From: Candidatus Baldrarchaeota archaeon
GTDB taxonomy: Archaea > Asgardarchaeota > Baldrarchaeia > Baldrarchaeales > DXJG01
NCBI GenBank assembly: GCA_016840485.1
Contig: JAEOSG010000002.1
Location: 50,368 to 82,367 of the forward strand
DNA: 32,000 nt
Direction: 5' to 3'
The notes under the pieces are model-generated. The model was not told where the DNA came from, made no database searches, and was given only the letters and a program-made list of their open reading frames with translations. Below are positions 13,907 through 32,000 of the stretch, piece by piece (within the stretch, counting starts at the first letter, position 1; each line of letters opens with the position of its first letter). A program made the translations under genes and the position numbers.

Positions 13907-15043
13907 TTAGTAACCTATGCCTATCGTATTTCCAATACCCGCAACGAGAATAACGTCACCTGGTTTAGTTCTTTCATTTATTATCCTCTTTATTCTTTCT
14001 ACAACTTTTCTAGTTGCTTCTGCAATCTCTCTTCTCATTGGGGAAACAGCTTCTTCAATAGATTCCTTAATAATAATGGCATCTAGTGGTACTTTATATT
14101 TTGTTGCTACTTCTTCAATCTTGTATTTATCGATGCCAATCCCTCCGATAGCGGCGCCAACGCCTTCCATTATTCCTCCAGTTTTTTCACCTTCCAATTT
14201 AATACCAGCATCTATCATAATTATTCTATCGATTTTAAGTTTTCTTTCTTCAAAAAGTTTTCTAATGGCTTCTCCTGGTTTACCAACTGTACCTCCTGGT
14301 CCTCGTGCACGCACCGCAATTACAGTTCTATCATCTATCTTTGTTTGAGCAATTACAGTGTCTTTTACTATTTCTTCATATTGTTCCTTACCAACCACAC
14401 CGTGTTCTCTTAGCAATCTGGTCACGGAAAGAACACCTGCTCCGTCACCAATTGGCTTTCCGTCAACAAAAGCTTTCAAAGCATCAAAATAAGCGTTCGC
14501 ATATTTCATAATTTCTGGAAGCTGCATTTGAAGTTGAAGAATTAAAATATAACTTTTAGTTTTTTCCCCTAATATAAGAAAATGTCTAACAATCCTATAA
14601 ATGAAATTCAAAGCGATAATTGCCTCCAACACATTTTCCAAATTAGCAGCCTGATCCCTACTTACATTTGGCGCCAACTCAGCTACAATATGTTCAAACC
14701 TCTCATCTCTAACATTAACTAAGTGTTCCAACTTATACATAATGCCGGACGGATCTCTATCAACAGGCTCTATCATAAAGAACTCTAAAAAATCATTTAT
14801 TCTAGAAACAATATTTGCATCTGAATTTCCAACATCTCTAAACGCTTTAATGGTAATTTCCTTTCCCTTGCGAACCATGTATTCAAGTTTTTGTAATGCT
14901 CGCTTAATCTGCCTAACCCAAATACTTACTTGCAAGCGTTGTCCATAGAACATATATACCAAAAGTAACAACAACCAAATCCAGTTTATAATCCAATTCC
15001 AACTTTCTTGCTGCCACGGGAACTGCACAACAACCAACCTCAT
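13907..15043 (-). CDS. Conserved archaeal membrane-anchored protein of unknown function (possibly DUF1512-like)
   Basis: It is a long intact ORF with a Trp-rich N-terminal transmembrane helix. The family name comes from memory of its overall appearance only. Confidence 0.45.
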   Translation of the reverse strand: MRLVVVQFPWQQESWNWIINWIWLLLLLVYMFYGQRLQVSIWVRQIKRALQKLEYMVRKGKEITIKAFRDVGNSDANIVSRINDFLEFFMIEPVDRDPSGIMYKLEHLVNVRDERFEHIVAELAPNVSRDQAANLENVLEAIIALNFIYRIVRHFLILGEKTKSYILILQLQMQLPEIMKYANAYFDALKAFVDGKPIGDGAGVLSVTRLLREHGVVGKEQYEEIVKDTVIAQTKIDDRTVIAVRARGPGGTVGKPGEAIRKLFEERKLKIDRIIMIDAGIKLEGEKTGGIMEGVGAAIGGIGIDKYKIEEVATKYKVPLDAIIIKESIEEAVSPMRREIAEATRKVVERIKRIINERTKPGDVILVAGIGNTIGIGY

Positions 15044-15301
15044 ATCGATCTATGTACTATCACAAAAGCAATCAAAATAAATAAGAACATTACGGTTAGA
15101 GTTAAAAACAACAAATTTTCTTATAAAACGGAAAACAAGAATTACAGCATGTTATTTAAATAACAAACGCCACTACTCTATACATCTTCGATTGCTAGTT
15201 CAACAAACAAAAGCAACGTGCAAAATCAAATTAAAGCAATTTCCACCCCAGCAATAAGATAAATAAATTAGGAATTGAATGTGAAAAACTAGCTAATTAA
15301 C

Positions 15302-15457
15302 GGTGCGGCATCCTTCCGTGTTCGGAATGGGAACGGGTATTTCCCTCCGCACTATGGCCGCCTGCCGAAGCAGGCAGCTTCCCAGTTTCCCATCCCCTCG
15401 CGGAGGATAGTACTCCTGGGAACGTGCGGAGGCTTGACTTTCACGGGATGCCGCACC
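15302..15457 (-). rRNA. Circularly permuted 5S rRNA gene (3' half - UUCG - 5' half) enclosed by a bulge-helix-bulge processing stem. The predicted excised unit is 15315..15439 (125 nt).
   Basis: The minus strand contains GCAGGCGGCCAUAGUGCGGAGGGAAAUACCCGUUCCCAUUCCGAACACGGAAG (the 5S 5' half). This lies downstream of GUCAAGCCUCCGCACGUUCCCAGGAGUACUAUCCUCCGCGAGGGGAUGGGAAACUGGGAAGCUGCCUGC (the 5S 3' half). The flanks GGUGCGGCAUCC/GGAUGCCGCACC are perfectly complementary. Confidence 0.85.
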
Positions 15458-15478
15458 ACTTCTATCACAATCACCAAC

Positions 15479-15488
15479 CATATAAAAA
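15479..15488 (-). promoter_or_regulatory. TATA box (minus strand TTTTTATATG) upstream of the permuted 5S unit
   Basis: It is a box A-like element about 20-25 nt upstream of the first nucleotide of the flanking helix. A T5 run follows the unit on the minus strand (about 15283-15287). Confidence 0.5.
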
Positions 15489-15709
15489 CATTATCCTAAG
15501 AAAATTATAAAATAAAATGTTAAAGTAACTATCAAATTAAAAATCAATTAATTCGTTTAAAACGAGTTATTATGGTAGATAGCTTGTTCACTAATAACCC
15601 GCCCTCGCCACTCTGAAAAACCTTCCCTCATTAATAAACTATAATCATAATATTAAATATTAGCCGAAAAATTTATCAAACGAGAAAATACTAATAAAAA
15701 TAGGATGTA

Positions 15710-15882
15710 GGGGCCGTAGCCTAGCCAGGTGAGGGATTAGCACGAAACTAGGCCCCCTTAGGGGCGACGGGCTCCAGAAGCCCATACGACGGGTTTGTTG
15801 ACCGAAGTGGGATGAAGAACTTCTGGAGCGGTGAATTGAAGAAACCCGTTGGTCGAGGGTTCAAATCCCTCCGGCCCCACCA
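15710..15882 (+). tRNA. tRNA-Trp(CCA) with two introns: D-arm about 15733-15761 and canonical 37/38 at 15778-15843. CCA is encoded.
   Basis: Hand-folded. Acceptor GGGGCCG/CGGCCCC, D stem GCCU/GGGC, anticodon stem ACGGG/CCCGU, loop CUCCAGA, T arm GAGGG-UUCAAAU-CCCUC, A73. The exons sum to 78 nt. Confidence 0.8.
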
Positions 15883-16312
15883 ACTTTCCTTAAACTATAT
15901 TTTTTGAAACCACAAACCATCAGTTAACTCTACCAATTTACTTTTTACATTATTTAACCGCAATTCAAAGGTTAACAAACATAGCAATTTAATAATCAAC
16001 AACGTCAAAAACATAAATGGTTTAAAACAAGGTTATTGACCAAATACAAAATTTTAATGTATTACATCGCATCGTATCTGTAGGAAAATACTCTTCATAA
16101 AATCATTCAACACAATTTTCTATAAAATAAACGAAATGCATCCCATGCATCGTGCTTCGCATATTACTCCCATTTTAAGTCTCACATTGCAAAAATATAC
16201 ATTAAAGATAATATTATCCCTGTCCCATAAGAAACCTAAAATATAGCAGCAAACTTAAGTAAGGAACAAAATAATAACTAACATTGAAATGTTTGCGGAA
16301 TCTTCTAGAGGT

Positions 16313-16479
16313 GCCGGGGTAGCTCAGCCTGGTTGGAGCGCCGGACTAAAAACACACTACCAAGGGCGAAACTCATAGGGTACAGAAATTTATAGTCCCT
16401 TCCTGTGACATCCGGAGGTCCCGGGTTCGAATTGCCTAGACTTGCTGGTCTGGGCACGAAAATCCCGGCCCCGGCACCA
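16313..16479 (+). tRNA. tRNA, most likely elongator Met(CAT), with three introns: about 16348-16373, 16378-16409 and a T-loop intron about 16433-16463. CCA is encoded.
   Basis: Acceptor GCCGGGG/CCCCGGC, D arm GCUC-AGCCUGGUUG-GAGC, anticodon stem CCGGA/UCCGG, T arm CCGGG-UUCGAAU-CCCGG. Only the assembly CU+CAUA+A gives a legal anticodon loop (CUCAUAA). The exons sum to exactly 78 nt. Confidence 0.65.
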
Positions 16480-16650
16480 AAACACATCGGTTCTTGATCT
16501 TTATATTTAAGCTGTAGACAGTGTCAACTTAGTTCTTGCGTCAAACTAAAATCCTTTATATTCAACTTCACGATTTAAAGTAAAATGGTTTTTATTACGG
16601 AGCCCCTTTAAATCCGACATAAATACATGAACGATGAAGAGGGGTAAGAA

Positions 16651-17880
16651 TTGCATGAATTCGAATTTCTAACACTAGACGACGTTGAGGTATCGGGGAA
16701 AAAAGTGCTTCTCAGGGTTGACATAAATTCTCCTATAGACCCGGAAACATTAACGATTTTAGACGATTCAAGAATAAAAGCCATACTCACCACTCTCAAA
16801 GACCTAGAAGATGCAGCAGTAGTTTTAATGTCCCATCAAAGCAGACCAGGGAAAAAAGATTTTACCTCACTTGAACCTCATGTACGAATACTAAAAAAAT
16901 ATCTGGGTGACCGAGTAAAATTTATAGATGACATATTTGGCCCAGCAGCCAGAAAAGAAATAAGAAAACTGCCACCAGGAAAAATATTAGTCTTAGAAAA
17001 CGTTAGATTCTATTCGGAAGAAAACATCGAAGCTCCACCAAAAGTCCTTGCAAGAACCCATCTTGTCAGAAAACTAGCACACTTCTTCGATCTATTCGTA
17101 AACGACGCTTTCGCAGCCATACACAGATCCCAACCATCACTTGTAGGCTTCGCAGAAGTACTACCAACCGTTGCTGGAAGGCTTATGGAAAAAGAACTAA
17201 AAGCACTAAAAAAAGTATTACAAAACCCAGAAAAACCCTGCGTATTCTTCCTAGGGGGAGCAAAAGTACCAGACAAAATGGAAATAATGCTAACAGCACT
17301 CAAAAAAGGAAAAGCAGACAAAATACTACTGGGAGGGTTACTCGCAAACGTTTTCCTAGAGGCAGCAGGATACAACATTGGAGAAGAAAACAGAAAACCT
17401 CTACCGGATTTCGAAAAGCTAAAAAACAAAGCAAAAACCATACTAGAAAAATACAGAGACGCAATAGAACTGCCAAAAGACGTAGCAGTAGAAATAAACA
17501 ACGAAAGAATGGAAGTGCCCATAGACAAACTACCAGTAAAAGGACAAATAAAAGACATAGGAATAAACACAATCATACACTACTCAAAAATACTATCAAA
17601 CGCAGCAACCATAGTAGCAAACGGACCAGCAGGAATATTCGAAGAAAGACAATACGCCATAGGAACAACAGAAATCCTACACTCAATAGCAAACTCAAAA
17701 GCCTACAAAGTAATAGGAGGAGGACACCTAGGAGCCATAGCAAACATACTAAACCTAAACACAAAAATCAACCACATATCCACAGGCGGAGGAGCAGCTT
17801 TGTCGCTACTTGCAGGACAAAAACTACCAGTAATAGAAGCTCTAACAAAAGCAGCAAAGAGACACAAAACCTATCACTAG
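16651..17880 (+). CDS. pgk: Phosphoglycerate kinase
   Basis: It shows VLLRVDINSPI, MSHQSRPG and a C-terminal ISTGGGA motif. The length fits archaeal PGK. It has a TTG start. Confidence 0.9.
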   Translation: MHEFEFLTLDDVEVSGKKVLLRVDINSPIDPETLTILDDSRIKAILTTLKDLEDAAVVLMSHQSRPGKKDFTSLEPHVRILKKYLGDRVKFIDDIFGPAARKEIRKLPPGKILVLENVRFYSEENIEAPPKVLARTHLVRKLAHFFDLFVNDAFAAIHRSQPSLVGFAEVLPTVAGRLMEKELKALKKVLQNPEKPCVFFLGGAKVPDKMEIMLTALKKGKADKILLGGLLANVFLEAAGYNIGEENRKPLPDFEKLKNKAKTILEKYRDAIELPKDVAVEINNERMEVPIDKLPVKGQIKDIGINTIIHYSKILSNAATIVANGPAGIFEERQYAIGTTEILHSIANSKAYKVIGGGHLGAIANILNLNTKINHISTGGGAALSLLAGQKLPVIEALTKAAKRHKTYH

Positions 17881-18075
17881 CAACAAACTCCCATAACTCC
17901 TTAAAAACATTGTAAATCGCACGGCAACGCTTTGACACTAACTTTAAATACACAAAACCATTAAAAGGCCTAAACACCTAACAACCATAGGAAATTCCTA
18001 GAAAGGGATCAAAGGTAACGACAAACTTATATTTACTTATTAAAGAAAATACCTATGGAGAAAACTGAAAAGGAA

Positions 18076-18202
18076 GCCGCCGTAGCTCAGCCGGTAGAGG
18101 AAAACAAGCGCCGAAAGCGGCGGACTTGTAAATTTGAGGCTATAGAGCCTTGTAAGTCGAGAGATCCGCTGGTCGCGGGTTCAAATCCCGCCGGCGGCTC
18201 CA
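18076..18202 (+). tRNA. tRNA-Thr(TGT) with two introns: D-arm 18099-18116 and 37/38 at 18131-18163. CCA is encoded.
   Basis: Acceptor GCCGCCG/CGGCGGC, U73, anticodon stem GCGGA/UCCGC, loop CUUGUAA, T arm GCGGG-UUCAAAU-CCCGC. The exons sum to 76 nt. Confidence 0.8.
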
Positions 18203-18300
18203 CTAATTTGTTTTTGTAGTTTTTGATGTTGTTTTATATGGTGGTTGCTATTGGGTGGAATTCGAGTTTGTGTTTGTATTTTTTGTTTAGTGTTTTTATT
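18203..18300 (+). repeat. T/G-rich low-complexity tract immediately 3' of tRNA-Thr(TGT)
   Basis: It has almost no A or C on the plus strand and contains TTTTTGATGTTGTTTTAT. Related tracts lie at 25268 and 29206. Confidence 0.6.
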
Positions 18301-19135
18301 GCGTTTTTGTTGGGTAGTGTTTTTCTTTTACAAATTCTATGCCTTCTACTTCTCTTAGATATTTTTCAAAGATATCCCAGACGTTGGTGAACCATTTTAA
18401 GTTGTTTTTCTTGGCGTAGTTGTATAGATTTTCTTCGACGTACTCATGAAATATTTTTGCGATGGCTAATTCCTTTTCTGAAAGTTCTTCTTCCCAAGGG
18501 AGGGGTGAACCGTGGGCTTCTGCGTCAAAATTTACGAAGTCTATCCAGTTTGCTTCGCTTCTTAACCATTTTTCAACAACATATAAAGATACTTTGTAAA
18601 AGAAGAGTTGTTCTCCTTCTAGCTTTACAACTTTTATTCTTTCGCTGTATTGCTTGAGTTCTTCATGTATGTCGAACATGTGCTCGGATGAAATTGTGGA
18701 TATTACGCGTCCCTTAACTATCTTTTCAATATTATCTCTGTGTTTTTTGTCTTCTAGCATTTTTTTGCGCATTTTCTGAAAGTTATCCAGCGCCTTTTTG
18801 CAGCATTTGCTTTCTGGCTTCTTATTGAAAATAATCGTGTTGTAACAGCACTCTTTTGGACATTTCCAACCTGCAATATTTCTTTCTTCTTCGGTGTAGG
18901 GTTCTTCGTTGTAATCTGTTGGATATTCTATGCCTATAAGGGATCTTTTGCAGTCTCTCTCATCAAGGTGTAAAGTGAAGGTTATTTTGGGTTCTATGGT
19001 GTCTATTAAACCTTTTTTCATCATTTCTTCGATAATATATATCATTATGATGTAAATTGTATCAATAATATAGTAGTGGTTTATTTCTTGTATCATGTGG
19101 AACATCCATTCTTCGTTTTCGGGAAGTTTCGTCAT
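18296..19135 (-). CDS. Hypothetical protein with no recognisable family (cytosolic, Cys cluster CPKECC...CCKK). Last gene of the orphan operon.
   Basis: It is an intact 279-aa ORF with GGGGG 7 nt upstream of the ATG. It is tightly packed behind the upstream gene. Confidence 0.6.
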   Translation of the reverse strand: MTKLPENEEWMFHMIQEINHYYIIDTIYIIMIYIIEEMMKKGLIDTIEPKITFTLHLDERDCKRSLIGIEYPTDYNEEPYTEEERNIAGWKCPKECCYNTIIFNKKPESKCCKKALDNFQKMRKKMLEDKKHRDNIEKIVKGRVISTISSEHMFDIHEELKQYSERIKVVKLEGEQLFFYKVSLYVVEKWLRSEANWIDFVNFDAEAHGSPLPWEEELSEKELAIAKIFHEYVEENLYNYAKKNNLKWFTNVWDIFEKYLREVEGIEFVKEKHYPTKTQ

Positions 19136-19148
19136 AACATGCCCCCTA

Positions 19149-20894
19149 TTATATTATTTGTTGCAGTATTTGTGTTGTAATGGTTCCTATGGCTATTCCT
19201 AGTAGGTATGTTGTGGGACCTCCGTTGGCGAATATTTGTATTGATGTGTCGATGGTTGGCCATATGATTTTTTCAAAGATCCATGCGTTGTTGCCGAATA
19301 GGGTTCTGGCGATGTATGGGATGGCTTGAGCGGCAAGAATCACGTTGTTTCCCTCTATTAGCATTTGTAGGAGCATGCCGTTTAGGATGCTTCCCAGAAA
19401 TGTTTGTAGTAAGACTTTTACCATGTCCTTTAAGCTCCCGTCATTGTTTTTGTTTGTTAGTAGGTTTGAGAAGTCTTGGTAGTCGTCGATGTTCATTAGA
19501 GCGTAGCTTATTAATGCTAGGATTACGTAAACTTTAATTTTCCCTTTTCCAGCTTTTAGAGTTCCTTTGAAGTTTTCTGGGAGTTTAACGTATACTTCCA
19601 TTCCTATCCTCGTTCCAAGGAAGCACGTTGATGCAAATAGAGCTATGCAAAGTACGCTTGTCTTGGACAAATCCGGTTTACTCAACGTCTTTTGGAGTAA
19701 GCTTTTGAATGTGCCGCTGACTTTTCCCTTTGTACATGTGTATTTTTCCCAGTTTATTTTCTTGGATTTGCCTTCAATTATTTTCTGGGTTATTTCGTTT
19801 GGTAGTTTTCTGTTTTCGTCGAAGTGCCATGAAAATGTTTCGTCGTCGATGAGGGCTAATGTTGCAGCTCTCATTACGTGTCCCCAAACGTCTCCTTCGT
19901 TGAGAACATTTTTTGCTGGTGGTATTGATAGGTATTCCCAACAAACTTTCCTAAGATTATCTTTGGCTATCAATCCTTCTAAAATAGTTCCATAAATTTT
20001 TTCTTTAGCTGTGACTTTAAATTCGTGTAAATTATATTTTGCTTCGTCTAGAGCTACAAAATTTATTGCTTCACTTTTTTCACGCCACTTCGAAACTCCT
20101 GTAAATCTTTTTTCTCGTCCTAAATAATCATTTTCCTCTATGAACTTTGTGTAGGAGTTATGTAGTAATTTGTAGTTTTCGTTTAGTATTTTTGTTAATT
20201 CGAGTTTGATGTTTTCAATTTTTGATGCTTCTGTATCTAGTCCTTCGCTTCTTAGTCTCTCTGCGGTGTCTTCTAGTATCCATTTGGTGGCAACTAATCC
20301 CAAGTGTGGTTCGCGGAGGAAAGGTGGGTCTGCTGAAATAATTACTCCCCGAATCTTTCCTTCAAATATAGTTGGATGCGCATCGAAAGTTGTTTGTGAA
20401 ATTAATTCGAAAAGCGAGGGGTCTGTTCCTTTGGATTCTCTATATAATTTTCTAATTTCATTCCAAACTTTAGCTTGTTCTAACACTAAATGCTTGACTT
20501 TACCTAGATGTTCTTTCCATTTTTCGTTTAATTTACATTTATCAAATCTGTATAATGCGTTTTTTACTCGATCTCCTTGTCTTCCTTTTACTATTGATGC
20601 CACTTTTCCATAATTGTCTTTAAATTGTCTTTCTCTGGGGTTTACTCCTATTAATATTCTGAAGCCCGTGAGCGTGTAGTCCCTTGCTTCAACTCTGTAT
20701 TCTACGAAATCGCTTATCAAGATAGATTTCTCATATCGTTTGTTTGTGAAATTTTCTTCGAACTTCTTTTTTCCATCTTGAAATTTCTCAATAGGATTTT
20801 CTTCAGGGTCCGTGAACTGATTTAGGTAGCCCTCCCAAATGACTGCAAAGACGACATGTTCTCCATCTATAAATGTGTGAATTGTTTGAACCAT
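19149..20894 (-). CDS. Hypothetical large protein: soluble N-terminal part of about 400 aa plus a C-terminal region of about 170 aa with several predicted transmembrane helices
   Basis: It is an intact 581-aa ORF. Its ATG lies 2 nt after the upstream stop (TAAGGATG). Hydrophobic stretches include VLCIALFASTCFLG, VYVILALISYALM and LLGIAIGTITTQIL. Confidence 0.65.
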   Translation of the reverse strand: MVQTIHTFIDGEHVVFAVIWEGYLNQFTDPEENPIEKFQDGKKKFEENFTNKRYEKSILISDFVEYRVEARDYTLTGFRILIGVNPRERQFKDNYGKVASIVKGRQGDRVKNALYRFDKCKLNEKWKEHLGKVKHLVLEQAKVWNEIRKLYRESKGTDPSLFELISQTTFDAHPTIFEGKIRGVIISADPPFLREPHLGLVATKWILEDTAERLRSEGLDTEASKIENIKLELTKILNENYKLLHNSYTKFIEENDYLGREKRFTGVSKWREKSEAINFVALDEAKYNLHEFKVTAKEKIYGTILEGLIAKDNLRKVCWEYLSIPPAKNVLNEGDVWGHVMRAATLALIDDETFSWHFDENRKLPNEITQKIIEGKSKKINWEKYTCTKGKVSGTFKSLLQKTLSKPDLSKTSVLCIALFASTCFLGTRIGMEVYVKLPENFKGTLKAGKGKIKVYVILALISYALMNIDDYQDFSNLLTNKNNDGSLKDMVKVLLQTFLGSILNGMLLQMLIEGNNVILAAQAIPYIARTLFGNNAWIFEKIIWPTIDTSIQIFANGGPTTYLLGIAIGTITTQILQQII

Positions 20895-20896
20895 CC

Positions 20897-25130: not shown

Positions 25131-25267
25131 GCGGGGGTGGCCGAGACCGCCAAAAACTATAATAGCGGCGGAAACCAGGACAAAGGGGCTGGATTCCGTT
25201 AAAAGGCGCCGGACTTAAGATCCGGTGGCGTAGGCCTGCGTGGGTTCGAATCCCACCCCCCGCACCA
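25131..25267 (+). tRNA. tRNA-Leu(TAA) with two D-arm introns (about 25146-25173 and 25187-25206). CCA is encoded.
   Basis: Acceptor GCGGGGG/CCCCCGC, anticodon arm CCGGA-CUUAAGA-UCCGG, long variable arm UGGCGUAGGCCUGC, T arm GUGGG-UUCGAAU-CCCAC. Confidence 0.8.
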
Positions 25268-25350
25268 ATTTGTTTTGATGTTATTTTTGTTTTGTGTTTC
25301 TTGCGTGTTTTTAGTTGATTGTTTGTTTGAGTTAATGTTTATTTGTTTGT
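25268..25350 (+). repeat. T/G-rich low-complexity tract immediately 3' of tRNA-Leu
   Basis: ATTTGTTTTGATGTTATTTTTGTTTTGTG... is nearly devoid of A and C. It shares TTTTGATGTT with the 18203 tract. Confidence 0.6.
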
Positions 25351-25364
25351 GGGTTAAAAGGTGT

Positions 25365-27243: not shown

Positions 27244-28911
27244 TTAAAATACTGTTGGAGCTTTGTATTCTCCGAAAACGTCTCTTAAGACATCGCAGAT
27301 TTCTCCGATTGTTGCATAAGATTTAACAGCATCTATAGTGATTGGTAGTATGTTCTCATCGCTCTCGGCAATTTCCCTCATTTTTTGAAGAACCTTCTTA
27401 ACCTTACTGTTATCTCTAGTGGCCTTCAATTTTCTAACGTGTTCTATCTGTTTTCTCTCAACTTCGGGATTAACTTTAAGAATTTCGTAGGAAATCTCTT
27501 CTTCTACAACGTACTTATTAACTCCAACAACACAACGATCTCCGGTTTCTATTTCTTTCTGATTTCTGTAAGCGTTATCAGCAATTTCTCTTTGAATATA
27601 TCCAGATTTAATTGCAGCAACAGCGCCTCCCATCTTTTCTATTTTCTCTATATATCTTAGAGCTCTGTCCTCGATTTCATTTGTTAGCCATTCAACGTAA
27701 TATGAGCCGCCAAGAGGATCCACTGTATTTGTAACACCAGTTTCCTCAGCAATAATTTGCTGGGTACGTAACGCTATACGAACTGCTTTTTCAGTTGGTA
27801 AACAAAGAGCTTCATCGTAGGAATTTGTGTGAAGAGATTGAGCACCACCAAGAACAGCGGCCAAAGCTTGAATAGCAACTCTAACAATATTTATCTCCGA
27901 TTGTTGAGCGGTTAAAGTAGATCCACAGGTCTGTACATGAAATCTAAGACGCATGGATCGGGGATTCTTTGCATCAAACTTCTCCCTCATTATCCGTGTC
28001 CATAATCTTCTAGCAGCTCTAAATTTTGCTATCTCCTCAAAAAAGTCGTTATGCACTCCAAAGAAAAAGGAAATCCTAGGAGCAAACTCGTCAACATCAA
28101 GACCTCTATTAATAGCCGCTCTGACATATTCTATTGCATTAGCAAAAGTAAAAGCAACTTCCTGAACAGCGTTGCATCCCGCTTCACGCATATGATATCC
28201 ACTCACGCTAATAAAATTCCATCTAGGCATATTTTTACAACTATACTCAATAATATCCACAACCAATCTCATAGAAGGCTCAGGAGGAAAAATATACTGC
28301 CCCCTCGCAACATATTCTTTCAAAATATCGTTCTGCACTGTACCGCTTAAATCCTTTAAAGAAACTCCCTGCATTTGACCTACCGCAATGTACATCGCTT
28401 GAAGAATATGTGCCGTGGCATTAATAGTCATAGAAGTAGATACTTTCTCCAAGGGAATACCGTCAAAAAGCCGTTCCATATCTTTAAGTGTTGGTACAGA
28501 GACCCCGACACGCCCAACCTCACCTATTGCCAAAGGATGGTCAGGATCGATTCCCATCTGCGTAGGGAGATCAAACGCCACACTCAAACCGGTTTGTCCT
28601 AATTCAAGAAGATACTTAAATCGCCTATTCGTCTCCTCAGCAGTTCCGTAGCCAGCATATTGTCGCATAGTCCAAAGACGACCCCTATACATATTATAAT
28701 ATACGCCCCGAGTATATGGGGGGGTTCCAGGGAAACCAAGATCCCTAAGATAGTCAAAACCCTCTAGATCAAGGGGAGTATACAGTCGTTTCACAGGGAT
28801 ACCCGAGGAAGTCGTAAAATTCTGCCTTCTCTCGCCGAAACGAGAAGCATCACGATCCCACTTATTCTTCTCCTTCCTTAATAACTTCATATATTTCTTA
28901 TCAAAGCTCAT
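27244..28911 (-). CDS. mcmA: Methylmalonyl-CoA mutase, large (catalytic) subunit
   Basis: It shows [42 protein letters not shown] and NDILKEY. The length of about 555 aa fits a split archaeal mutase that lacks the B12 domain. Confidence 0.9.
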
Positions 28912-29099
28912 AACAAACACCAAATCGATTGCTGCTGATAACCTCAACGAACATCCCTTATACTAACACACTTATCAAAACACCCCAAATTAAAATTATG
29001 TCACTCTGATAAACAAATAGAACCAAGCTAATAAACAAACTTGATGGGACGTAGCAAAATCGTATCTTTAAGCAAAACAAAATGTATAATGAAGTAGAG

Positions 29100-29203
29100 T
29101 GGAGCCGCCGGCGGGATTTGAACCCGCGACCCCGTCCTTACCAAGGACGTGCTTTGGCCCGTTTTTATTTCTGCTTTGTCTGACCAGGCTGAGCTACGGC
29201 GGC
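29100..29203 (-). tRNA. tRNA-Thr(GGT) with one D-arm intron (29153-29178). CCA is encoded.
   Basis: The minus strand reads GCCGCCG-UA-GCUC-AGCCUGGUCA-GA[26 nt]GC-A-CGUCC-UUGGUAA-GGACG-GGGUC-GCGGG-UUCAAAU-CCCGC-CGGCGGC-U-CCA. Confidence 0.8.
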
Positions 29204-29205
29204 AT

Positions 29206-29345
29206 CTTTTGTTTTGGTTTTGTTATATCTTGTTATTTGACATCATGGGTTTTTTGATCGTGTTGTTTGTTTTATTTTTGTTTTTTATATTTTTGTTTGT
29301 TTGGTTTTATTTGTTTTTTGGTTTGTTTGTTGAGTTGTCTTTTTT
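29206..29345 (+). repeat. T/G-rich low-complexity tract adjacent to tRNA-Thr(GGT), on the 5' side of that minus-strand gene
   Basis: It consists of (T3-6 G1-2)n-like sequence, e.g. TTTTTTGATCGTGTTGTTTGTTTTATTTTTG, almost free of A and C for about 140 nt. Confidence 0.6.
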
Positions 29346-29417
29346 GTAACAAGGTTTTACTGTTGTTATAGTAGGTCTTATAAGTAAATTGGTGATATTG
29401 TTAGTTGATGGTGGGTT

Positions 29418-30182
29418 ATGATGATTACTGATACCGTCTGGATGTTTATTTCTTATCTGTTGGGTTTAGTTGATAGCTTATTTTTGTTATTTGACGGTGT
29501 TAGAGGGATAATTTCTGGTTTTCTAGGAGTTAATGTTACTGTTGAGGCTTGGTTTGCGTTTTGGTTGTTTGTTGCGTTAGCAGTTTCGACCTATGTTTTG
29601 TCTTCTAAGCGGGGGGTTGTTGAGCCGGCTACCGTTCCTGCTGAGGTTGGTCCTGATTCGATTATTACATTTAAGGCTGAGAAGGTTGCAGTAGAGTCGG
29701 CATTAGAATTTTTACAAGATGCTTTTAGGAAAGGTGAGATTTCGGAGCAGTTGTACGCTAGATTAAAGTCTTTCTATTCAGATAAGTTGGAGAGAGTCAA
29801 TGAAAGACTTGCTAGCTTAAGTAGAGTTGAAGAGTTTAGAGGTATCGAGTTCGAGCTTGAAGAAGCTAAGCGTGAGTTCCTAGAGAGGTTAAAGGCTCCG
29901 ACAATTACTGAGGAAGCTAAGGTTGAAGAGCCAGTTGTTAAAAAACCAATTGTCGGTAGGGAGGTCGTTCCCAAGCAAGTTCCTGAGCCAATCTCTAGAG
30001 AGGTTACGAGCCCTAGGATTGAAGAGCCCAAGGTTGAAGTTGTCAGGGAAACTAAGGTTGAAGTCAAGCCTACTTCTCCACCTCGGTCCCCACCGAAAGG
30101 GGAAACACTTGTTCAAGTATTAAGAGATGAAATGTTGAAGGAACTCCGCAGATTGAAGGAAATTATCGAAAAATCTAGTTAA
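29418..30182 (+). CDS. Hypothetical membrane-anchored coiled-coil protein with a P/E/V/K-rich tail
   Basis: It has two N-terminal hydrophobic helices, a heptad-like middle (LERVNERLASLSRVEEF) and PEVK-like repeats (EEPKVEVVRETKVEVKPTSPP). Confidence 0.55.
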   Translation: MMITDTVWMFISYLLGLVDSLFLLFDGVRGIISGFLGVNVTVEAWFAFWLFVALAVSTYVLSSKRGVVEPATVPAEVGPDSIITFKAEKVAVESALEFLQDAFRKGEISEQLYARLKSFYSDKLERVNERLASLSRVEEFRGIEFELEEAKREFLERLKAPTITEEAKVEEPVVKKPIVGREVVPKQVPEPISREVTSPRIEEPKVEVVRETKVEVKPTSPPRSPPKGETLVQVLRDEMLKELRRLKEIIEKSS

Positions 30183-30195
30183 CAACGGTTCAGAG

Positions 30196-30909
30196 ATGAG
30201 TGTTATGCCCGCTAGTTCTGAAAAAGAGGCTGCTAAGTTCAACGCCGCTGAAGCAGCTGTTAAGTTAGTGAAGGATGGGCATGTTATCGGAATTGGAAGT
30301 GGATCTACTGTTGAGTATTTTGTCAAATTACTAGGCAAGCGTATTAAGGACGAGGAGCTGGAGATCTATGGGGTTCCTTCCTCTTTTCAATCGTATTTTC
30401 TTGCGCTAAGTAACGGTATTCGTGTTGTTAGCTTGGACGAGTTTAATGTGCTTGATTTGGCGATTGATGGTGCTGATGAAGCGGATTCTAAGTTAAATTT
30501 AATCAAGGGTGGTGGGGGGGCTCTTACAAGAGAGAAAATTGTTGATTCTGCGGCAAAAAATTTTGTTGTGATTGTTGACTGGACTAAGAAGGTTTCTCAT
30601 CTTGGTGAAAGGTTTCCGGTTCCTGTAGAGGTCTTGCCCTTTGCATATGGTTACGTTTGCCGTAGATTGAGAGAGTTTGGTGGAGATCCGGTTCTTAGAG
30701 AAGCTAAGTCTAAGTTGGGCCCTATCATATCTGATAATGGTAATTTTATTGTCGATGTAAAATTTCAACGAATAGATGATGCTAAAAAGTTGGAAAAGGA
30801 AATAAACAATATCCCTGGTGTTATTGAAAACGGTATTTTTCCATCGAGTCTAGTTGATATGGTTTATGTGGGGTATAGTGATAAGGTCGAAGTGTTAAAA
30901 CGGAAATGA
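30196..30909 (+). CDS. rpiA: Ribose-5-phosphate isomerase A
   Basis: It shows GIGSGSTV, AIDGADE and KGGGGALTREK motifs. Confidence 0.9.
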   Translation: MSVMPASSEKEAAKFNAAEAAVKLVKDGHVIGIGSGSTVEYFVKLLGKRIKDEELEIYGVPSSFQSYFLALSNGIRVVSLDEFNVLDLAIDGADEADSKLNLIKGGGGALTREKIVDSAAKNFVVIVDWTKKVSHLGERFPVPVEVLPFAYGYVCRRLREFGGDPVLREAKSKLGPIISDNGNFIVDVKFQRIDDAKKLEKEINNIPGVIENGIFPSSLVDMVYVGYSDKVEVLKRK

Positions 30910-30913
30910 GTTT

Positions 30914-32000
30914 TTATTCAGCGTATATTCTTCTTCCAAGTTTTAGAGCTTCTTCAAGTATTTTCCCATAGTTGCTGGTTTTTCTAATTTTTACTTCTCC
31001 ACGTTTTCCAGCTCTTACTGTGAATAGTAAGTCTTCGTCGGCATAGAAGTTTACTAGCTTTCTTGCTAATGCTGGTGGGACAAATAAAATATAATGTTTC
31101 CGAGTTGTCTCTATTTCTACAGGAATCTTCTCCCTTTTAGTAACTTCTCTTTTTCTTCTTTTTTCTCCCTTCACTTCCTTTACTGGCGCAACAACTACTT
31201 GTTCTCCAAAAACGTATATTTCGTACTCTAGTTCTCCTCTTTCAAAATCTCTGACTTCAATAACTGGTCGTGCCAAGTCTCTTTCGGTCATACCAGTTGG
31301 TACCTTCACTGTAAGATTGAGGGAGTACACTTTTTCTATTTCTCCCCCTTTAATGAAAATTACTGTATCTACAACTCTGCTGATTAAACCTAGGTCTACT
31401 CTTCCAATGAAACGCTGTATTGCATCTATTGCTTGTGTAGCATGAACAACACCTATCATACCTACTCCAGCGAATCTTAGATCTGCGAAAATTTTGAAAT
31501 CTCTGGTTTTCCTCAGTTCGTCAAAAATACAGTAATCGGGTCTTACAAGTAGCAATACGTCAGCTGTTCTTTCTAAACTGCCTCTTAAAGCAGTATATTG
31601 TGTTATATCTGGGCCAACTTGTAAATCTCTTGGTTTTTCTATGGTTTTTACTATTTTGTTCATACTGCTATAAAATTCGGCGAGTGCTGATGCAAAAGTG
31701 CTTTTCCCTGCACCAGGTGGACCTGCTATTAGTATGCCCTCTGCTCTTTCTCTTAATCGTTTTAAAAGTTTATCTGAAACATTATAATCGTTTATTGTCA
31801 TCTTCACGAGAGGTCTTACGGCTGTTATTTCCATTCCGTCTGAGAAGGGCGGCCTCGCGATAGCAATTCTATAGTCCCTCATTTGTATGACCGTGGCTCC
31901 AGGCTCGTCTATTTCTATAAAAGAGTCTTTTTCGCTTCTTGTTCTTTCTATTATGTCCATGGCAATACTTTGCAATTCTTCAAGAGTCATAGGTTCTTCC
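30914..32000 (-). CDS. P-loop ATPase of the PIN/PilT-N plus KH type (PhoH-like core). The N-terminal part probably lies beyond the window.
   Basis: It has a GILIAGPPGAGKSTFASALAEFY Walker A motif. The reading frame stays open upstream of the ATG at 31990 up to the window edge. Confidence 0.6.
   Translation of the reverse strand, partial: EEPMTLEELQSIAMDIIERTRSEKDSFIEIDEPGATVIQMRDYRIAIARPPFSDGMEITAVRPLVKMTINDYNVSDKLLKRLRERAEGILIAGPPGAGKSTFASALAEFYSSMNKIVKTIEKPRDLQVGPDITQYTALRGSLERTADVLLLVRPDYCIFDELRKTRDFKIFADLRFAGVGMIGVVHATQAIDAIQRFIGRVDLGLISRVVDTVIFIKGGEIEKVYSLNLTVKVPTGMTERDLARPVIEVRDFERGELEYEIYVFGEQVVVAPVKEVKGEKRRKREVTKREKIPVEIETTRKHYILFVPPALARKLVNFYADEDLLFTVRAGKRGEVKIRKTSNYGKILEEALKLGRRIYAE

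What the first reader, a model, noticed from the sequence alone, without database searches (positions are those of the whole stretch)
14900..32000. Sharp keto/amino (G+T vs A+C) strand-composition switches that coincide with tRNA genes and reshape synonymous codon usage
By eye the plus strand is strongly A+C-rich from about 14900 to 18075. This region covers spacers and the 3' half of pgk. At tRNA-Thr(TGT) it flips to G+T-rich (18203 to about 20600), then drifts back to C/A-rich (about 20900-23500). It is G+T-rich again from about 24200 through the epimerase gene, A+C-rich at about 28600-29100, and flips again at tRNA-Thr(GGT) to G+T-rich from 29206 to the window end.

The effect sits at synonymous sites. 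The pgk 3' half uses GCA/GGA/GUA/AAA/CUA/AAC, while rpiA, also on the plus strand, uses GCU/GGU/GUU/AAG/UUG/GAU. The effect also follows the DNA strand rather than gene orientation. The minus-strand ATPase gene at 30914-32000 has A/C-ending codons, so the plus strand stays G/T-rich there. Antisense ORFs full of Leu/Phe/Cys opposite pgk are a by-product.

Every AC-to-GT switch has the polarity expected when the strand running 5'-3' away from the point spends more time single-stranded. This occurs at replication-origin-like points, in strand-displacement synthesis, or in persistent R-loops. Cytosine and adenine deamination then enrich that strand in T and G. Three such points within 11 kb, each at a tRNA gene, is not what a single chromosomal origin would give.
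Basis: seen in the sequence. Interest (0 to 1): 0.65.

Follow-up and report, generated by a model that had tools for sequence, protein, structure and literature searches.

The report
Strand-composition sawtooth anchored at tRNA genes
In this uncultured archaeon the DNA on either side of a few tRNA genes is strongly biased, so that the strand running away from the tRNA gene is G+T-rich for 1-5 kb whichever way the genes point; this looks like the footprint of a local process, not yet described, that repeatedly leaves that strand single-stranded.

Summary
The plus-strand keto skew, (G+T-A-C)/n, runs from -0.41 to +0.56 in 400-nt windows. The maximum in 1.17 Mb of control archaeal DNA is 0.395.

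The three largest upward (AC to GT) jumps in a 50-kb composite lie inside tRNA-Thr(GGT), inside tRNA-Thr(TGT), and 1 nt after tRNA-Leu(TAA).

The bias sits at synonymous sites. In pgk, 93 consecutive codons end in A or C. Pyrimidine-ending two-fold codons are C:T = 47:4 in the last two-thirds of pgk, against 351:783 in background genes. The bias forms gradients that cross gene boundaries and orientations. In a related species it goes smoothly from -0.14 to -0.87, jumps to +0.79 at tRNA-Thr(GGT), then decays to 0.

The pattern is conserved in six lineages of one clade. It is absent from a Baldrarchaeia relative and from 135 control tRNA loci.

The base changes (C to T, A to G, and apparently G to T on the outward-running strand) fit damage to single-stranded DNA. 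The process that exposes the strand cannot be decided from sequence. Candidates are R-loop or strand-displacement events nucleated at stable-RNA genes, read-through transcription, and fork processing.

One arm, right of tRNA-Thr(TGT), lies in a strain-variable island.

The parts
14400..18075 (.). A+C-rich (plus strand) arm left of tRNA-Thr(TGT). It covers the 5' half of the DUF1512 gene, the 5S gene, two tRNA genes, the spacers and pgk, and is steepest in the 3' two-thirds of pgk.
   Evidence: Keto skew is -0.14 to -0.41. Third-position skew goes from -0.25 to -1.00 within pgk. The arm is conserved in L010, L011, L094, L098 and L099.
15296..15478 (-). Circularly permuted 5S rRNA gene: the 3' half comes first, then the 5' half, with complementary flanks. 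Downstream of it (to the left), the 5' half of the DUF1512 gene is G+T-rich on the minus strand.
   Evidence: Two half-matches to Rfam 5S in swapped order. Third-position skew is -0.36 to -0.42 at 14474-15041.
15710..15882 (+). Intron-containing tRNA gene with encoded CCA. It lies inside the A+C-rich arm and has no switch of its own.
   Evidence: ARAGORN with introns allowed; Rfam clan hit; flank difference -0.07.
16312..16478 (+). Multi-intron tRNA gene with encoded CCA; isotype not determined. No switch of its own.
   Evidence: Read by eye. Its ends match other tRNA ends (D6 and I5). It is conserved in L010 and L011.
16651..17880 (+). Phosphoglycerate kinase gene. It carries the strongest synonymous bias: 93 consecutive codons end in A or C.
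   Evidence: Pfam PGK. The Baldrarchaeia ortholog has a third-position skew of about 0.
18076..18199 (+). tRNA-Thr(TGT) with two introns: switch point C1.
   Evidence: Rfam tRNA, 47.5 bits. It is the second-largest upward jump in 50 kb (+0.66).
18200..20894 (.). G+T-rich arm right of C1. It covers two minus-strand genes of unknown family and ends abruptly at a gene boundary.
   Evidence: Keto skew is +0.15 to +0.29. Third-position skew is +0.16 to +0.69. This DNA is absent from L010, L011 and L099.
18215..24822 (.). Strain-variable island between tRNA-Thr(TGT) and the next tRNA gene. All its genes lack family matches, and no integrase was found.
   Evidence: A 310-nt stretch replaces it in L010 and a WbsX-type gene in L011. 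Positions 20041-24539 are deleted in L094. No significant Pfam or PHROG match. Nothing in viral contigs.
24935..25072 (+). Intron-containing tRNA gene with encoded CCA.
   Evidence: ARAGORN with introns allowed; Rfam clan hit.
25182..25267 (+). tRNA-Leu(TAA): a switch point with a downstream arm only.
   Evidence: ARAGORN. The third-largest upward jump is at 25268, 1 nt after its 3' end.
25268..25650 (.). G+T-rich arm downstream of tRNA-Leu, covering the spacer and the first two-thirds of the methylmalonyl-CoA epimerase gene.
   Evidence: The spacer has keto skew +0.69, with 2 C in 97 nt. Third-position skew is +0.70 and +0.57. The arm is present in L010 and L098 and absent in L011 and L099.
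27800..29098 (.). A+C-rich (plus strand) arm left of tRNA-Thr(GGT), covering the 5' 60% of the minus-strand methylmalonyl-CoA mutase gene. In L099 it extends 4.7 kb through plus-strand genes as well.
   Evidence: Third-position skew is -0.19 to -0.58. The L099 gradient runs from -0.14 to -0.87, with Spearman -0.84.
29099..29206 (-). tRNA-Thr(GGT) with an intron: switch point C2, the sharpest one. Its 3' 34 nt are a perfect inverted copy of the 3' end of tRNA-Thr(TGT).
   Evidence: It is the largest upward jump (+0.72). Inverted repeat I2. Conserved in L098 and L099.
29207..32000 (.). G+T-rich arm right of C2. It covers the spacer, a gene for a 254-aa protein of unknown family (+), rpiA (+) and the PINA ATPase gene (-). 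It continues to about 32600, outside the window.
   Evidence: The spacer has keto skew +0.64, with 8 C in 211 nt. Third-position skew is +0.57 falling to about +0.2-0.3, across both orientations. The end of the arm is seen in L096. The same arm is present in L098 and L099.

Best explanation
The pattern is a local, strand-asymmetric mutation pressure, not selection on codons.

Around particular stable-RNA genes, the DNA strand that runs 5' to 3' away from the gene has accumulated C to T and A to G changes. Four-fold sites suggest G to T changes as well. The genes concerned are the two tRNA-Thr genes above all, and more weakly tRNA-Leu(TAA), a tRNA-Arg gene and the 5S gene. The pressure is strongest at the gene border and fades over 1-5 kb. 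It has driven synonymous sites, spacers and partly amino-acid composition toward G+T on that strand and A+C on its partner.

The most likely cause is that this strand is recurrently single-stranded in a thermophile, where deamination of single-stranded DNA is fast. My preferred mechanism has two steps. RNA-DNA hybrids (R-loops) form at these very heavily transcribed genes. They are then extended, by spreading of the hybrid or by short tracts of strand-displacement DNA synthesis primed from it, in one or both directions. The displaced outward strand is left exposed.

Shown: the polarity, the gradients, the synonymous-site signature, the anchoring at RNA genes, conservation within one clade and absence outside it.

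Inferred: single-strandedness, R-loops and any DNA synthesis.
For: Anchoring at RNA genes:
- The top three upward jumps in 50 kb lie in, or 1 nt from, tRNA genes. Seven of the top 12 lie within 50 nt of an RNA gene, against 1 of the top 12 downward jumps. Nine of 10 RNA genes have a positive right-minus-left difference.

The bias follows the strand, not the gene:
- Orientation gives R2 = 0.012.
- In L099 the third-position gradient runs unbroken through ACAD(+), ETFb(+), ETFa(+) and mutase(-). On the other side it runs through the unknown-family gene(+), rpiA(+), PINA(-) and EndA(-). Spearman is -0.84 and -0.89.

The signature fits a mutational origin:
- Two-fold purine and two-fold pyrimidine codons shift together along the keto/amino axis, C/T more than A/G.
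- Spacers next to the switch points are as biased as third positions: +0.62, +0.69 and +0.64.
- First and second codon positions of pgk are also shifted relative to the Baldrarchaeia ortholog.

A gradient inside one conserved gene, pgk from -0.25 to -1.00, rules out whole-gene causes.

The pattern is maintained across six lineages that differ by about 15% in DNA, so it is a standing pressure and not one burst.

It is lineage-specific:
- Absent from Baldrarchaeia locus L012, which has six tRNA genes next to pgk.
- Absent from 135 control tRNA loci: mean jump +0.01, SD 0.074.
- 115 unrelated tRNA-Thr loci show only a weak trend of the same sign, -0.048 upstream and +0.030 downstream.

The 160 nt between the 5' end of tRNA-Thr(GGT) and the next promoter are fully biased. 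So the arm starts at the tRNA border, not at a mapped transcription start.
Against: - There is no direct evidence for single-stranded DNA, R-loops or DNA synthesis.
- Two tRNA genes (15710, 16312) have no switch of their own.
- At tRNA-Thr(TGT), only the upstream (pgk) arm is conserved.
- No transcript or primer is known that would displace the minus strand over pgk, which is the most extreme arm.
- pgk third positions (to -1.00) are more biased than the adjacent 195-nt spacer (-0.33). That spacer holds a terminator and a promoter, so the comparison is not clean.
- Divergence between strains is not raised in the biased segments (small counts).
- Four-fold sites need a transversion component beyond deamination.
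- The arm at 18200-20894 stops at a gene boundary rather than fading, and it belongs to an island.
Confidence: 0.4

Rival explanations
1. Pure transcription-associated mutagenesis. Very strong promoters of the stable-RNA genes, and divergent promoters beside them, drive read-through RNA outward for kilobases. The non-template strand is exposed in the transcription bubble and accumulates deamination. No DNA synthesis is involved.
For: - Most arms lie downstream of an RNA gene in its own sense direction and start at its 3' end: tRNA-Thr(TGT), tRNA-Leu, tRNA-Thr(GGT), 5S, and tRNA-Arg in L006.
- Arms are present or absent one at a time between lineages, as expected of separate transcription units.
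- The right arm of C2 begins with the sense-transcribed unknown-family gene and rpiA, and ends near the PINA/EndA promoters.
- tRNA flanks are known mutational hot spots with a deamination-type spectrum in eukaryotes (PMC6130373).
Against: - The outward strand carries about 10 runs of five or more T per kb, twice the background, and the first lies 12-44 nt from the tRNA end. By established knowledge such tracts terminate archaeal RNA polymerase, so kilobase read-through is unlikely.
- The pgk arm would need a strong antisense transcript with no gene or conserved element to make it; only the tRNA promoter block is conserved.
- The untranscribed 160 nt upstream of both promoters at C2 is fully biased.
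- The RNA polymerase operon and other presumably well-expressed genes show no bias.
- pgk, the island genes, PINA, ETF and ACAD are biased opposite to what their own transcription would give.
- The known effect at tRNA flanks spans tens of bases, not kilobases.
Confidence: 0.25
2. Replication forks stall at these tRNA genes from both sides. The newly made leading strand is degraded backward for a few kilobases, exposing its parental template. That template is the strand running 5' to 3' away from the tRNA gene, and it is damaged before resynthesis.
For: - The polarity fits on both sides (inference from strand geometry).
- Decay over kilobases would reflect the lengths of degradation tracts.
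- By established knowledge from yeast and bacteria, tRNA genes are replication barriers.
- Contigs of several assemblies break at these tRNA genes, and the locus is a hot spot of insertion, deletion and recombination.
Against: - Barriers are usually polar (head-on). Yet the conserved, strongest arm at tRNA-Thr(TGT) is on the co-directional side.
- Two neighbouring tRNA genes show no effect.
- Nothing here is directly tested.
- Such processing would have to happen in a large share of cell cycles to outweigh ordinary mutation.
Confidence: 0.1
3. One or more of the switch points are true chromosomal replication origins, and the skew is ordinary leading/lagging-strand asymmetry.
For: Each switch has origin-type polarity. 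Archaea can have several origins (established knowledge).
Against: - The arms return to about zero within 1-5 kb instead of persisting. The 14 kb to the left and the 8 kb to the right of the biased region have a skew near zero of the same sign.
- There are three centres within 11 kb.
- No Orc1/Cdc6 gene appears in the gene tables covering about 50 kb.
- No origin-box-like repeat family appears near the switches; the only repeats there are tRNA-derived or low-complexity T/G tracts.
Confidence: 0.05
4. Selection rather than mutation. For example, codon preference tied to expression, avoidance of RNA structure near tRNA precursors, or arrays of T-run terminators that stop read-through from RNA genes.
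For: - pgk third positions are more extreme than the neighbouring spacer.
- T runs are enriched on the outward strand.
- The G+T-rich spacer at C2 aligns well between species, but it is low-complexity sequence.
Against: - The gradients cross from plus-strand to minus-strand genes without a break, so no property of the mRNA or of codon choice can be the target.
- Non-coding spacers are as biased as third positions at three switch points.
- G rises along with T, and A to G shifts accompany C to T shifts, which terminator selection does not predict.
- Two housekeeping genes on the same strand have opposite codon usage.
Confidence: 0.05
5. A mosaic of horizontally acquired or inverted blocks with different native composition, joined at tRNA integration sites.
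For: - The segment 18215-24822 is a strain-variable island next to the 3' end of a tRNA gene. Its first two genes have their own uniform bias, which ends at a gene boundary.
- Gene order around the tRNA cluster differs from that of Baldrarchaeia.
- Strain divergence is mosaic: 1% in some segments against 13% in others.
Against: - There are smooth monotonic gradients inside single conserved housekeeping genes and across several of them.
- The pgk and tRNA-Thr(GGT) arms are conserved in syntenic relatives.
- Background genes of the same genome show no strong genome-wide skew that inversion could reveal.
Confidence: 0.05

Closest known systems
Strand-displacement gradient of animal mitochondrial DNA (time the heavy strand spends single-stranded; light-strand origin inside a tRNA cluster). 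From established knowledge.
   Same: The exposed strand is enriched in G+T at synonymous sites through C to T and A to G changes. There is a monotonic gradient with distance from an initiation point. A discontinuity sits at a tRNA-associated site. The coding strand becomes A+C-rich, and G is nearly absent from third positions.
   Different: - Here the DNA is an archaeal chromosome, not an organelle genome.
- The gradients span 1-5 kb, not a whole genome.
- There are several centres within 11 kb.
- Arms occur on both sides of a centre.
- The local magnitude is at least as strong: third-position skew reaches -1.0.
- No replication mode is known for this organism.
Skew switch at bacterial and archaeal replication origins, and the sharp upward skew jumps with gradual decline between them ('N-domains') in mammalian genomes. 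From established knowledge.
   Same: The polarity is the same: A+C-rich to the left and G+T-rich to the right of the point. The sawtooth shape, with sharp rises and gradual falls, is also shared.
   Different: - The scale is hundreds to thousands of times smaller.
- The arms fade to zero rather than reaching the next centre.
- No origin-recognition gene or origin-box repeats were found.
- The amplitude is far larger than replication skews in the control archaea.
Transcription-associated mutagenesis at tRNA genes and their flanks in eukaryotes (Thornlow et al. 2018, PMC6130373).
   Same: tRNA loci are the focus. A deamination-type spectrum is attributed to exposure of one strand during very heavy transcription.
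   Different: - There the excess divergence is reported for the inner flanks (20 bases upstream) and outer flanks (to 40 bases), and is seen as raised divergence. Here it is a compositional equilibrium over kilobases.
- Here neighbouring protein genes are biased against the direction expected from their own transcription.
- Here the organism is an archaeon.
R-loop-primed DNA synthesis: ColE1 plasmid origins, and constitutive stable DNA replication in E. coli lacking RNase H. From established knowledge.
   Same: A hybrid formed at a heavily transcribed site displaces one strand and can prime DNA synthesis that moves away from the site. This gives the polarity seen here.
   Different: It has not been shown in any archaeon at tRNA genes. 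Nothing here tests it. In E. coli it is a mutant phenotype, not a standing feature that shapes base composition.
Extreme GC skew of the mitochondrial genome of the thermoacidophilic red alga Galdieria sulphuraria (PMC4316638; seen only as a search hit).
   Same: An unusually strong strand asymmetry in a heat-loving organism.
   Different: It is an organelle-wide, single-direction skew. I did not read the paper beyond its title and the start of its abstract.

Membership tests
Chromosomal replication origin (skew switch type) | A+C-rich to G+T-rich switch on the reference strand at the point | tested here: met
   All strong jumps have this polarity.
Chromosomal replication origin (skew switch type) | The asymmetry persists over the whole replication arm (tens to hundreds of kb) | tested here: not met
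   The arms return to about 0 within 1-5 kb. The flanks at 1-14 kb and beyond 32.6 kb are near zero.
Chromosomal replication origin (skew switch type) | Adjacent initiator gene (Orc1/Cdc6) and repeated origin-recognition boxes flanking an A+T-rich unwinding element | tested here: not met
   No such Pfam family appears among the called genes over about 50 kb. The only repeats near the switches are tRNA-derived or low-complexity T/G tracts. The test is limited: no archaeal origin-box model was available.
Chromosomal replication origin (skew switch type) | Copy-number peak in growing cells | not testable with these tools
   This needs read-depth or marker-frequency data.
Mitochondrial-type single-strand exposure gradient | G+T enrichment of one strand at synonymous sites by C to T and A to G changes | tested here: met
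   Two-fold codon tests give an NNY C:T odds ratio of 26 and an NNR A:G odds ratio of 6.8 in pgk, with the reverse in the epimerase gene, the unknown-family gene, rpiA and the mutase gene.
Mitochondrial-type single-strand exposure gradient | Monotonic change of the bias with distance from the initiation site, independent of gene orientation | tested here: met
   The L099 arms have Spearman -0.84 and -0.89 across genes of both orientations. The pgk gradient is seen in six lineages.
Mitochondrial-type single-strand exposure gradient | Demonstrated asynchronous (strand-displacement) DNA synthesis | not testable with these tools
   This needs analysis of replication intermediates.
Transcription-associated mutational asymmetry | The non-template (coding) strand of the transcribed unit is the G+T-enriched one | tested here: inconclusive
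   This holds for the epimerase gene, the 5' part of the mutase gene, the unknown-family gene, rpiA and the 5' part of the DUF1512 gene. It is reversed for pgk, the two island genes, PINA, DUF2110 and TFE, and for ETF and ACAD in L099. The reversed cases could be rescued only by unobserved outward transcripts.
Transcription-associated mutational asymmetry | Confined to the transcribed region and its immediate flanks | tested here: not met
   The arms are 1-5 kb long. One includes about 160 nt upstream of both promoters at tRNA-Thr(GGT). For tRNA genes the known flank effect spans tens of bases.
Gene-orientation (coding-strand) compositional bias | The sign of the skew tracks the coding strand | tested here: not met
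   R2 = 0.012. Mean plus-strand third-position skew is -0.01 for plus genes and +0.08 for minus genes.
Integrated mobile element at a tRNA gene (applies only to 18215-24822) | Present or absent between close relatives, and abutting the 3' end of a tRNA gene | tested here: met
Integrated mobile element at a tRNA gene (applies only to 18215-24822) | An integrase gene, and a direct repeat of the tRNA 3' end at the far border | tested here: not met
   No integrase or any other significant family was found. No direct copy of the tRNA-Thr 3' end lies at the far border; the only copy is the inverted one in tRNA-Thr(GGT).

The most novel reading that the evidence does not exclude
In this clade of thermophilic archaea, a few tRNA genes act as dispersed start sites for short tracts of DNA synthesis. 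The clade's nearest named relatives by PGK and RpiA similarity are Baldrarchaeia and Odinarchaeia. The synthesis would be primed from R-loops, independently of an origin, and would proceed by strand displacement in one or both directions. It would occur often enough in every generation to impose a mitochondrial-type mutation gradient on the neighbouring chromosome. That would be a mode of DNA metabolism not described for any cellular chromosome, and it could be read directly from base composition.
Probability: 0.2. Interest if true: 0.9.

Novelty: new variant of a known kind. Interest (0 to 1): 0.72.

Why it matters
Strand asymmetry of base composition is normally a genome-scale, weak signal of replication direction, or a gene-scale signal of transcription. 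Here it is a kilobase-scale sawtooth of near-maximal strength, pinned to tRNA genes. It rewrites the synonymous codon usage of housekeeping genes, and partly their amino-acid content, according to where they sit.

If the cause is recurrent single-strandedness nucleated at tRNA genes, three things follow.

1. Composition alone would give a map of R-loop or strand-displacement activity in an uncultured archaeon.
2. It would be a natural case of position-dependent mutation bias strong enough to mislead codon-usage, horizontal-transfer and phylogenetic analyses.
3. It may open a view of how origin-independent DNA synthesis starts in archaea related to the eukaryotic stem.

The questions become testable with metatranscriptomes, read-depth profiles and variant spectra from the same hot-spring samples.

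Tried and rejected
Explanations rejected:
- Gene orientation: R2 = 0.012.
- Whole-gene codon bias or expression level: there are gradients inside pgk and across genes, and the RNA polymerase operon is unbiased.
- Assembly artefact: four independent assemblies are identical.
- A general property of archaeal tRNA loci: 135 control tRNA loci have a mean jump of +0.01 and a maximum of 0.28.
- A double-strand break at the tRNA gene followed by 5'-to-3' resection. This exposes the strand ending 3' at the break and predicts the opposite polarity (geometric inference).
- Uncoupling ahead of a stalled leading-strand polymerase. This also predicts the opposite polarity.
- Breaks at mid-domain with resection toward the tRNA gene. 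This predicts the strongest bias far from the tRNA gene, the reverse of what is seen.

Steps that led nowhere:
It returned only relatives with 57% identity or less, not the source genome, so no genome-wide test was possible. The 80 loci served as controls instead.
- A look-up of the PINA protein failed because the gene runs off the window.
- Look-ups of the 237-aa rpiA reading frame and the 254-aa neighbouring frame, as read from the window, reached only a 2.7-kb contig. The 234-aa rpiA start worked.
- The island proteins have no Pfam or PHROG family and no relatives in viral contigs. The tRNA-Thr 3' half is absent from viral contigs.
- Divergence between strains is mosaic because of recombination and is not raised in the biased arms. 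It therefore gave no handle on local mutation rate.
- Alignment of the spacer upstream of tRNA-Thr(TGT) in six lineages showed only the tRNA promoter block conserved. No hidden minus-strand RNA gene appeared that could drive antisense transcription of pgk.
- The fourth-largest upward jump, at 23818 inside the island, has no RNA gene and no obvious feature.
- Full-text searches of the paper library found no description of such a pattern in archaea.

Full report
**What the window is.** The window is low-G+C (about 37%) archaeal DNA.
- It is 100% identical, over the stretches compared, to JGI contigs (L006 from Ga0309840_100012, and L008). It is 99.9% identical to ENA ERZ650341 NODE_34. Near-identical pieces occur in an NCBI MAG and in Logan assemblies. 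The sequence is therefore not an assembly artefact.
- Its PGK and RpiA proteins are closest, among named sequences, to Baldrarchaeia (64%) and Odinarchaeia (about 60%). Sources' names for the window's own proteins are not shown, so I do not name the organism.
- The second half of the window is rich in stable-RNA genes that the default tRNA scan missed because they carry introns. They are:
  - a 5S gene on the minus strand at about 15296-15478;
  - tRNA genes at 15710-15882 (+), 16312-16478 (+) and 24935-25072 (+);
  - tRNA-Thr(TGT) at 18076-18199 (+);
  - tRNA-Leu(TAA) at 25182-25267 (+);
  - tRNA-Thr(GGT) at 29099-29206 (-).

**Checking the observation.**
- It stays between about -0.15 and +0.07 through the first 14 kb.
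- It is -0.14 to -0.41 from 14.4 to 18.07 kb, and jumps to +0.29 directly after tRNA-Thr(TGT).
- It fades to zero by 20.9 kb and is weakly negative to 23.8 kb.
- It is positive to 25.8 kb, with a peak of +0.41 right after tRNA-Leu.
- It is near zero to 27.8 kb and negative to 29.1 kb.
- It jumps to +0.56 directly after tRNA-Thr(GGT) and stays positive to the window end.

In 1.17 Mb of control DNA (80 archaeal pgk loci) the same statistic has SD 0.075 and never exceeds 0.395. The second half of this window has SD 0.18.

**The bias is at synonymous sites.**
- Third-position keto skew is -0.64 for pgk, and -0.40 and -0.44 on the coding strand of the two genes right of tRNA-Thr(TGT).
- It is +0.45 for the reading frame containing the epimerase gene, +0.32 for the 254-aa gene of unknown family, and +0.39 for rpiA.
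- It is -0.30 on the coding strand of the minus-strand PINA ATPase gene, which is +0.30 on the plus strand. In all 14 genes between 770 and 15043 it is at most 0.23 in size.
- Inside pgk it rises from -0.25 at the 5' end to -1.00. There are 93 consecutive codons with A or C in third place, P about 6e-27 at the background frequency.
- Codon families that isolate transitions give the cleanest picture. In 18 background genes, purine-ending two-fold codons are A:G = 871:354 and pyrimidine-ending ones are C:T = 351:783. The last two-thirds of pgk have 50:3 and 47:4. The first two-thirds of the epimerase gene have 4:10 and 0:17. The unknown-family gene, rpiA and the 5' part of the mutase gene shift the same way as the epimerase gene. 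The island genes, PINA, DUF2110 and TFE shift the same way as pgk.

**It follows the strand and the distance, not the gene.**
- Gene orientation explains 1% of the variance of binned plus-strand third-position skew between 13.9 and 32 kb. A crude predictor, the signed exponential decay from three centres, explains about 58%.
- The clearest case is a related species, L099 (RpiA 79% identical; NCBI GCA_019056805.1), which is syntenic from pgk to the RNA polymerase operon.
  - Its plus-strand third-position skew falls smoothly from -0.14 to -0.87 over 4.7 kb, through three plus-strand genes (ACAD, ETF-beta, ETF-alpha) and the minus-strand mutase gene.
  - It jumps to +0.79 across tRNA-Thr(GGT).
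  - It then declines through the unknown-family gene (+), rpiA (+), PINA (-) and EndA (-) to zero about 4 kb away. Spearman is -0.84 and -0.89.
  - The transitions from plus-strand to minus-strand genes leave no step in the curve.

**The switch points are RNA genes.** I joined the window to about 9 kb of the same contig on each side and scored every position for the difference between its right and left 400 nt.
- The three largest upward jumps lie inside tRNA-Thr(GGT) (+0.72), inside tRNA-Thr(TGT) (+0.66) and 1 nt after tRNA-Leu (+0.49).
- Seven of the 12 largest upward jumps are within 50 nt of an RNA gene, against one of the 12 largest downward jumps.
- RNA genes with a 50-nt margin cover about 5% of the sequence.
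- Nine of 10 RNA genes have a positive right-minus-left difference.
- The pattern is invariant under reverse complementation, so the orientation of the tRNA gene does not matter. In the tRNA's own frame, the sense strand is A+C-rich upstream and G+T-rich downstream.

**Who has it.**
- The pgk arm is present in all six lineages sampled. These are the window, L094 (87% DNA identity in this segment), L010 and L011 (PGK 93% and 90% identical to the window's), and L098 and L099 (RpiA 82% and 79%).
- Both arms at tRNA-Thr(GGT) are present in the window, L098 and L099.
- The arm after tRNA-Leu is present in the window, L010 and L098, but absent in L011 and L099.
- A Baldrarchaeia locus with six tRNA genes next to pgk, and with the same neighbours (PINA, rpiA, the unknown-family gene), has no window beyond 0.15.
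- In the control loci, 135 tRNA genes have a mean jump of +0.01, SD 0.074 and maximum 0.28.
- A scan of JGI metagenomes for the shared 3' half of the tRNA-Thr genes returned 120 loci from many lineages. The 115 matches outside the clade show only a weak trend of the same sign over 1 kb: -0.048 upstream and +0.030 downstream, with SD 0.083 and 0.059. The clade's own loci show -0.31 and +0.26 to +0.34.
- One unrelated lineage (L154 and L217, 47% G+C) has a comparable 1.2-kb arm.
- So this is an extreme, lineage-restricted form of what may be a faint general tendency.

**A correction to the simple picture.** The G+T-rich arm right of tRNA-Thr(TGT), 18200-20894, lies in a 6.6-kb segment (18215-24822) that varies between strains.
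- L010 has 310 nt there, L011 has a different gene, L099 has no protein-coding gene there, and L094 lacks 20041-24539.
- In relatives without these genes, the skew right of tRNA-Thr(TGT) is near zero.
- In the window the bias of the two genes is fairly uniform and stops at a gene boundary.
- The island proteins match no family, and there is no integrase.
- So this switch is conserved on its left side only. More generally, the arms behave as separate units that can be present or absent.

**What kind of change made it.**
- The shifts run along the keto/amino axis, not the G+C axis or the purine axis. On the strand that runs away from the RNA gene, C has been replaced by T and A by G.
- The pyrimidine shift is stronger: the odds ratio is 26 against 6.8 in pgk. 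By established chemistry, cytosine deaminates faster than adenine.
- At four-fold sites the A+C-rich strand is mostly A (0.73 against 0.13 C). The G+T-rich strand is mostly T (0.56-0.62 against 0.17-0.20 G in the unknown-family gene and rpiA). This needs a transversion flow, which I read as G to T on the exposed strand. That reading is an inference.
- Spacers next to the switches are as biased as third positions: +0.62, +0.69 and +0.64, with 2 C in 97 nt and 8 C in 211 nt.
- First and second positions of pgk are shifted by about 0.15-0.2 relative to the Baldrarchaeia ortholog in the 3' part of the gene only.
- All this points to mutation pressure, not codon selection. Because the pattern persists across lineages that differ by about 15% in DNA, the pressure is standing and not a single burst.

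**Mechanism.** The polarity requires that the strand running 5' to 3' away from the centre be the damaged one. That excludes, by geometry, a break at the tRNA gene with 5'-to-3' resection, and uncoupling ahead of a stalled leading-strand polymerase. Three processes remain.
1. The displaced strand of an R-loop, or of strand-displacement synthesis moving outward.
2. The non-template strand of outward transcription.
3. The leading-strand template behind forks that stall at the tRNA gene and lose their nascent leading strand.

*Against plain read-through transcription:*
- The outward strand has about 10 runs of five or more T per kb, starting 12-44 nt from the tRNA ends. Such tracts terminate archaeal RNA polymerase (established knowledge).
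- The strongest arm, pgk, would need an antisense transcript, yet the only conserved element in the 90-200-nt spacer is the tRNA promoter.
- About 160 nt upstream of both promoters at tRNA-Thr(GGT) are fully biased.
- The RNA polymerase operon is unbiased.

*Against a symmetric replication bubble:*
- tRNA-Thr(TGT) has one conserved arm only, and tRNA-Leu has only a downstream arm.

*Against true chromosomal origins:*
- The arms fade within 5 kb.
- There are three centres within 11 kb.
- No initiator gene or origin-box repeats are nearby.

I therefore commit, at 0.4, to events nucleated at heavily transcribed stable-RNA genes that displace the outward strand. These would be R-loops that spread, or that prime short tracts of strand-displacement synthesis. 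A G-rich displaced strand stabilises the hybrid, and this feedback could explain both the extreme values and the all-or-none differences between lineages; that last step is speculation. Pure transcription-associated mutagenesis gets 0.25, fork processing 0.1, and the rest 0.05 each.

**Comparison with what is known.**
- The closest analogue in form is the mitochondrial gradient set by the time the heavy strand spends single-stranded, with its discontinuity at an origin inside a tRNA cluster.
- The closest in locus is transcription-associated mutagenesis at eukaryotic tRNA genes. That effect is reported for flanks of tens of bases and is seen as divergence, not as a compositional equilibrium.
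- Full-text searches found no report of kilobase-scale skew gradients anchored at tRNA genes in an archaeal chromosome.
- I class it as a new variant of a known kind: mutational strand asymmetry from single-strand exposure. It has a new anchor, a new scale and a new magnitude.

**Limits.**
- Only about 50 kb of this genome and about 20 kb of each of two relatives could be read. The reference-genome scan did not return the source genome. The genome-wide claim is therefore untested.
- The isotype of the tRNA gene at 16312-16478 and the borders of tRNA-Thr(GGT) rest on reading by eye, supported by the repeat matches.

Noticed in passing
window 15296-15478, minus strand: The 5S rRNA gene is circularly permuted. 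On the minus strand, the 3' half of 5S (Rfam model positions from about 50 to 120) comes first. It is joined through a short UUCG-type link to the 5' half (model positions from 1 to about 58). The whole is bracketed by complementary 12-nt flanks (GGUGCGGCAUCC / GGAUGCCGCACC) that could bring the new ends together for cutting and ligation. Rfam's gathering scan finds no 5S gene. The segment is conserved in L010, L011 and L098. A literature search found permuted 5S described only in organelles.
   Followed up: partly
window 15710-15882, 16312-16478, 18076-18199, 24935-25072, 29099-29206: Five of the six tRNA genes carry one or more introns, some at non-canonical positions (D-arm, T-loop). Three of the five encode the CCA end. 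The default tRNA scan found only the intron-less tRNA-Leu.
   Followed up: partly
window 18171-18204 and 29098-29131: The two tRNA-Thr genes share a 34-nt perfect inverted repeat at their 3' ends and a 24-nt, 92% repeat at their 5' ends. These bracket the 11-kb segment between the two strongest switch points. No inversion of the segment was seen among the six lineages.
   Followed up: partly
window 18215-24822: This is a hypervariable island of genes with no family match and no integrase. They include a 581-aa and a 350-aa protein, and a 63-aa protein that by eye resembles an AbrB-type fold. The island has different content or deletions in every lineage examined. Contigs of several assemblies end at the flanking tRNA genes.
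   Followed up: partly
L094 against the window: window 15760-20041, 24539-34000, and about 34000-40400 in extended coordinates: Strains with identical RpiA protein are 1% divergent in some segments and 5-13% divergent in others. This suggests frequent recombination between lineages about 10% apart.
   Followed up: no
L217 300-1500 (also L154): An unrelated archaeal lineage (47% G+C) has a 1.2-kb G+T-rich arm upstream of a minus-strand tRNA-Thr gene, running through a gene whose product looks like a CBS-domain protein (not tested). The phenomenon may therefore have arisen more than once.
   Followed up: partly
L017 1600-2600, L020 6000-7000, L022 6800-8200: Soil Bathyarchaeota loci have a stretch of about 1 kb upstream of pgk with a keto skew of about -0.33 to -0.35. 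This is the strongest signal in the control set apart from L040 (0.395). I did not examine which gene lies there or whether the three stretches correspond.
   Followed up: no
window 29418-30182; L012 6812-7543: A protein of about 250 aa with no family match lies next to rpiA and the PINA ATPase gene in both this clade and Baldrarchaeia. It has a hydrophobic N-terminus, a Glu/Lys-rich middle and a Pro-rich tail. Its N-terminal codons are almost entirely G/T-rich, so local base composition may be shaping its sequence.
   Followed up: no
window 23818: The fourth-largest upward jump (+0.35) lies in an A+T-rich 500-nt spacer inside the island, with no RNA gene or repeat that I could see.
   Followed up: partly
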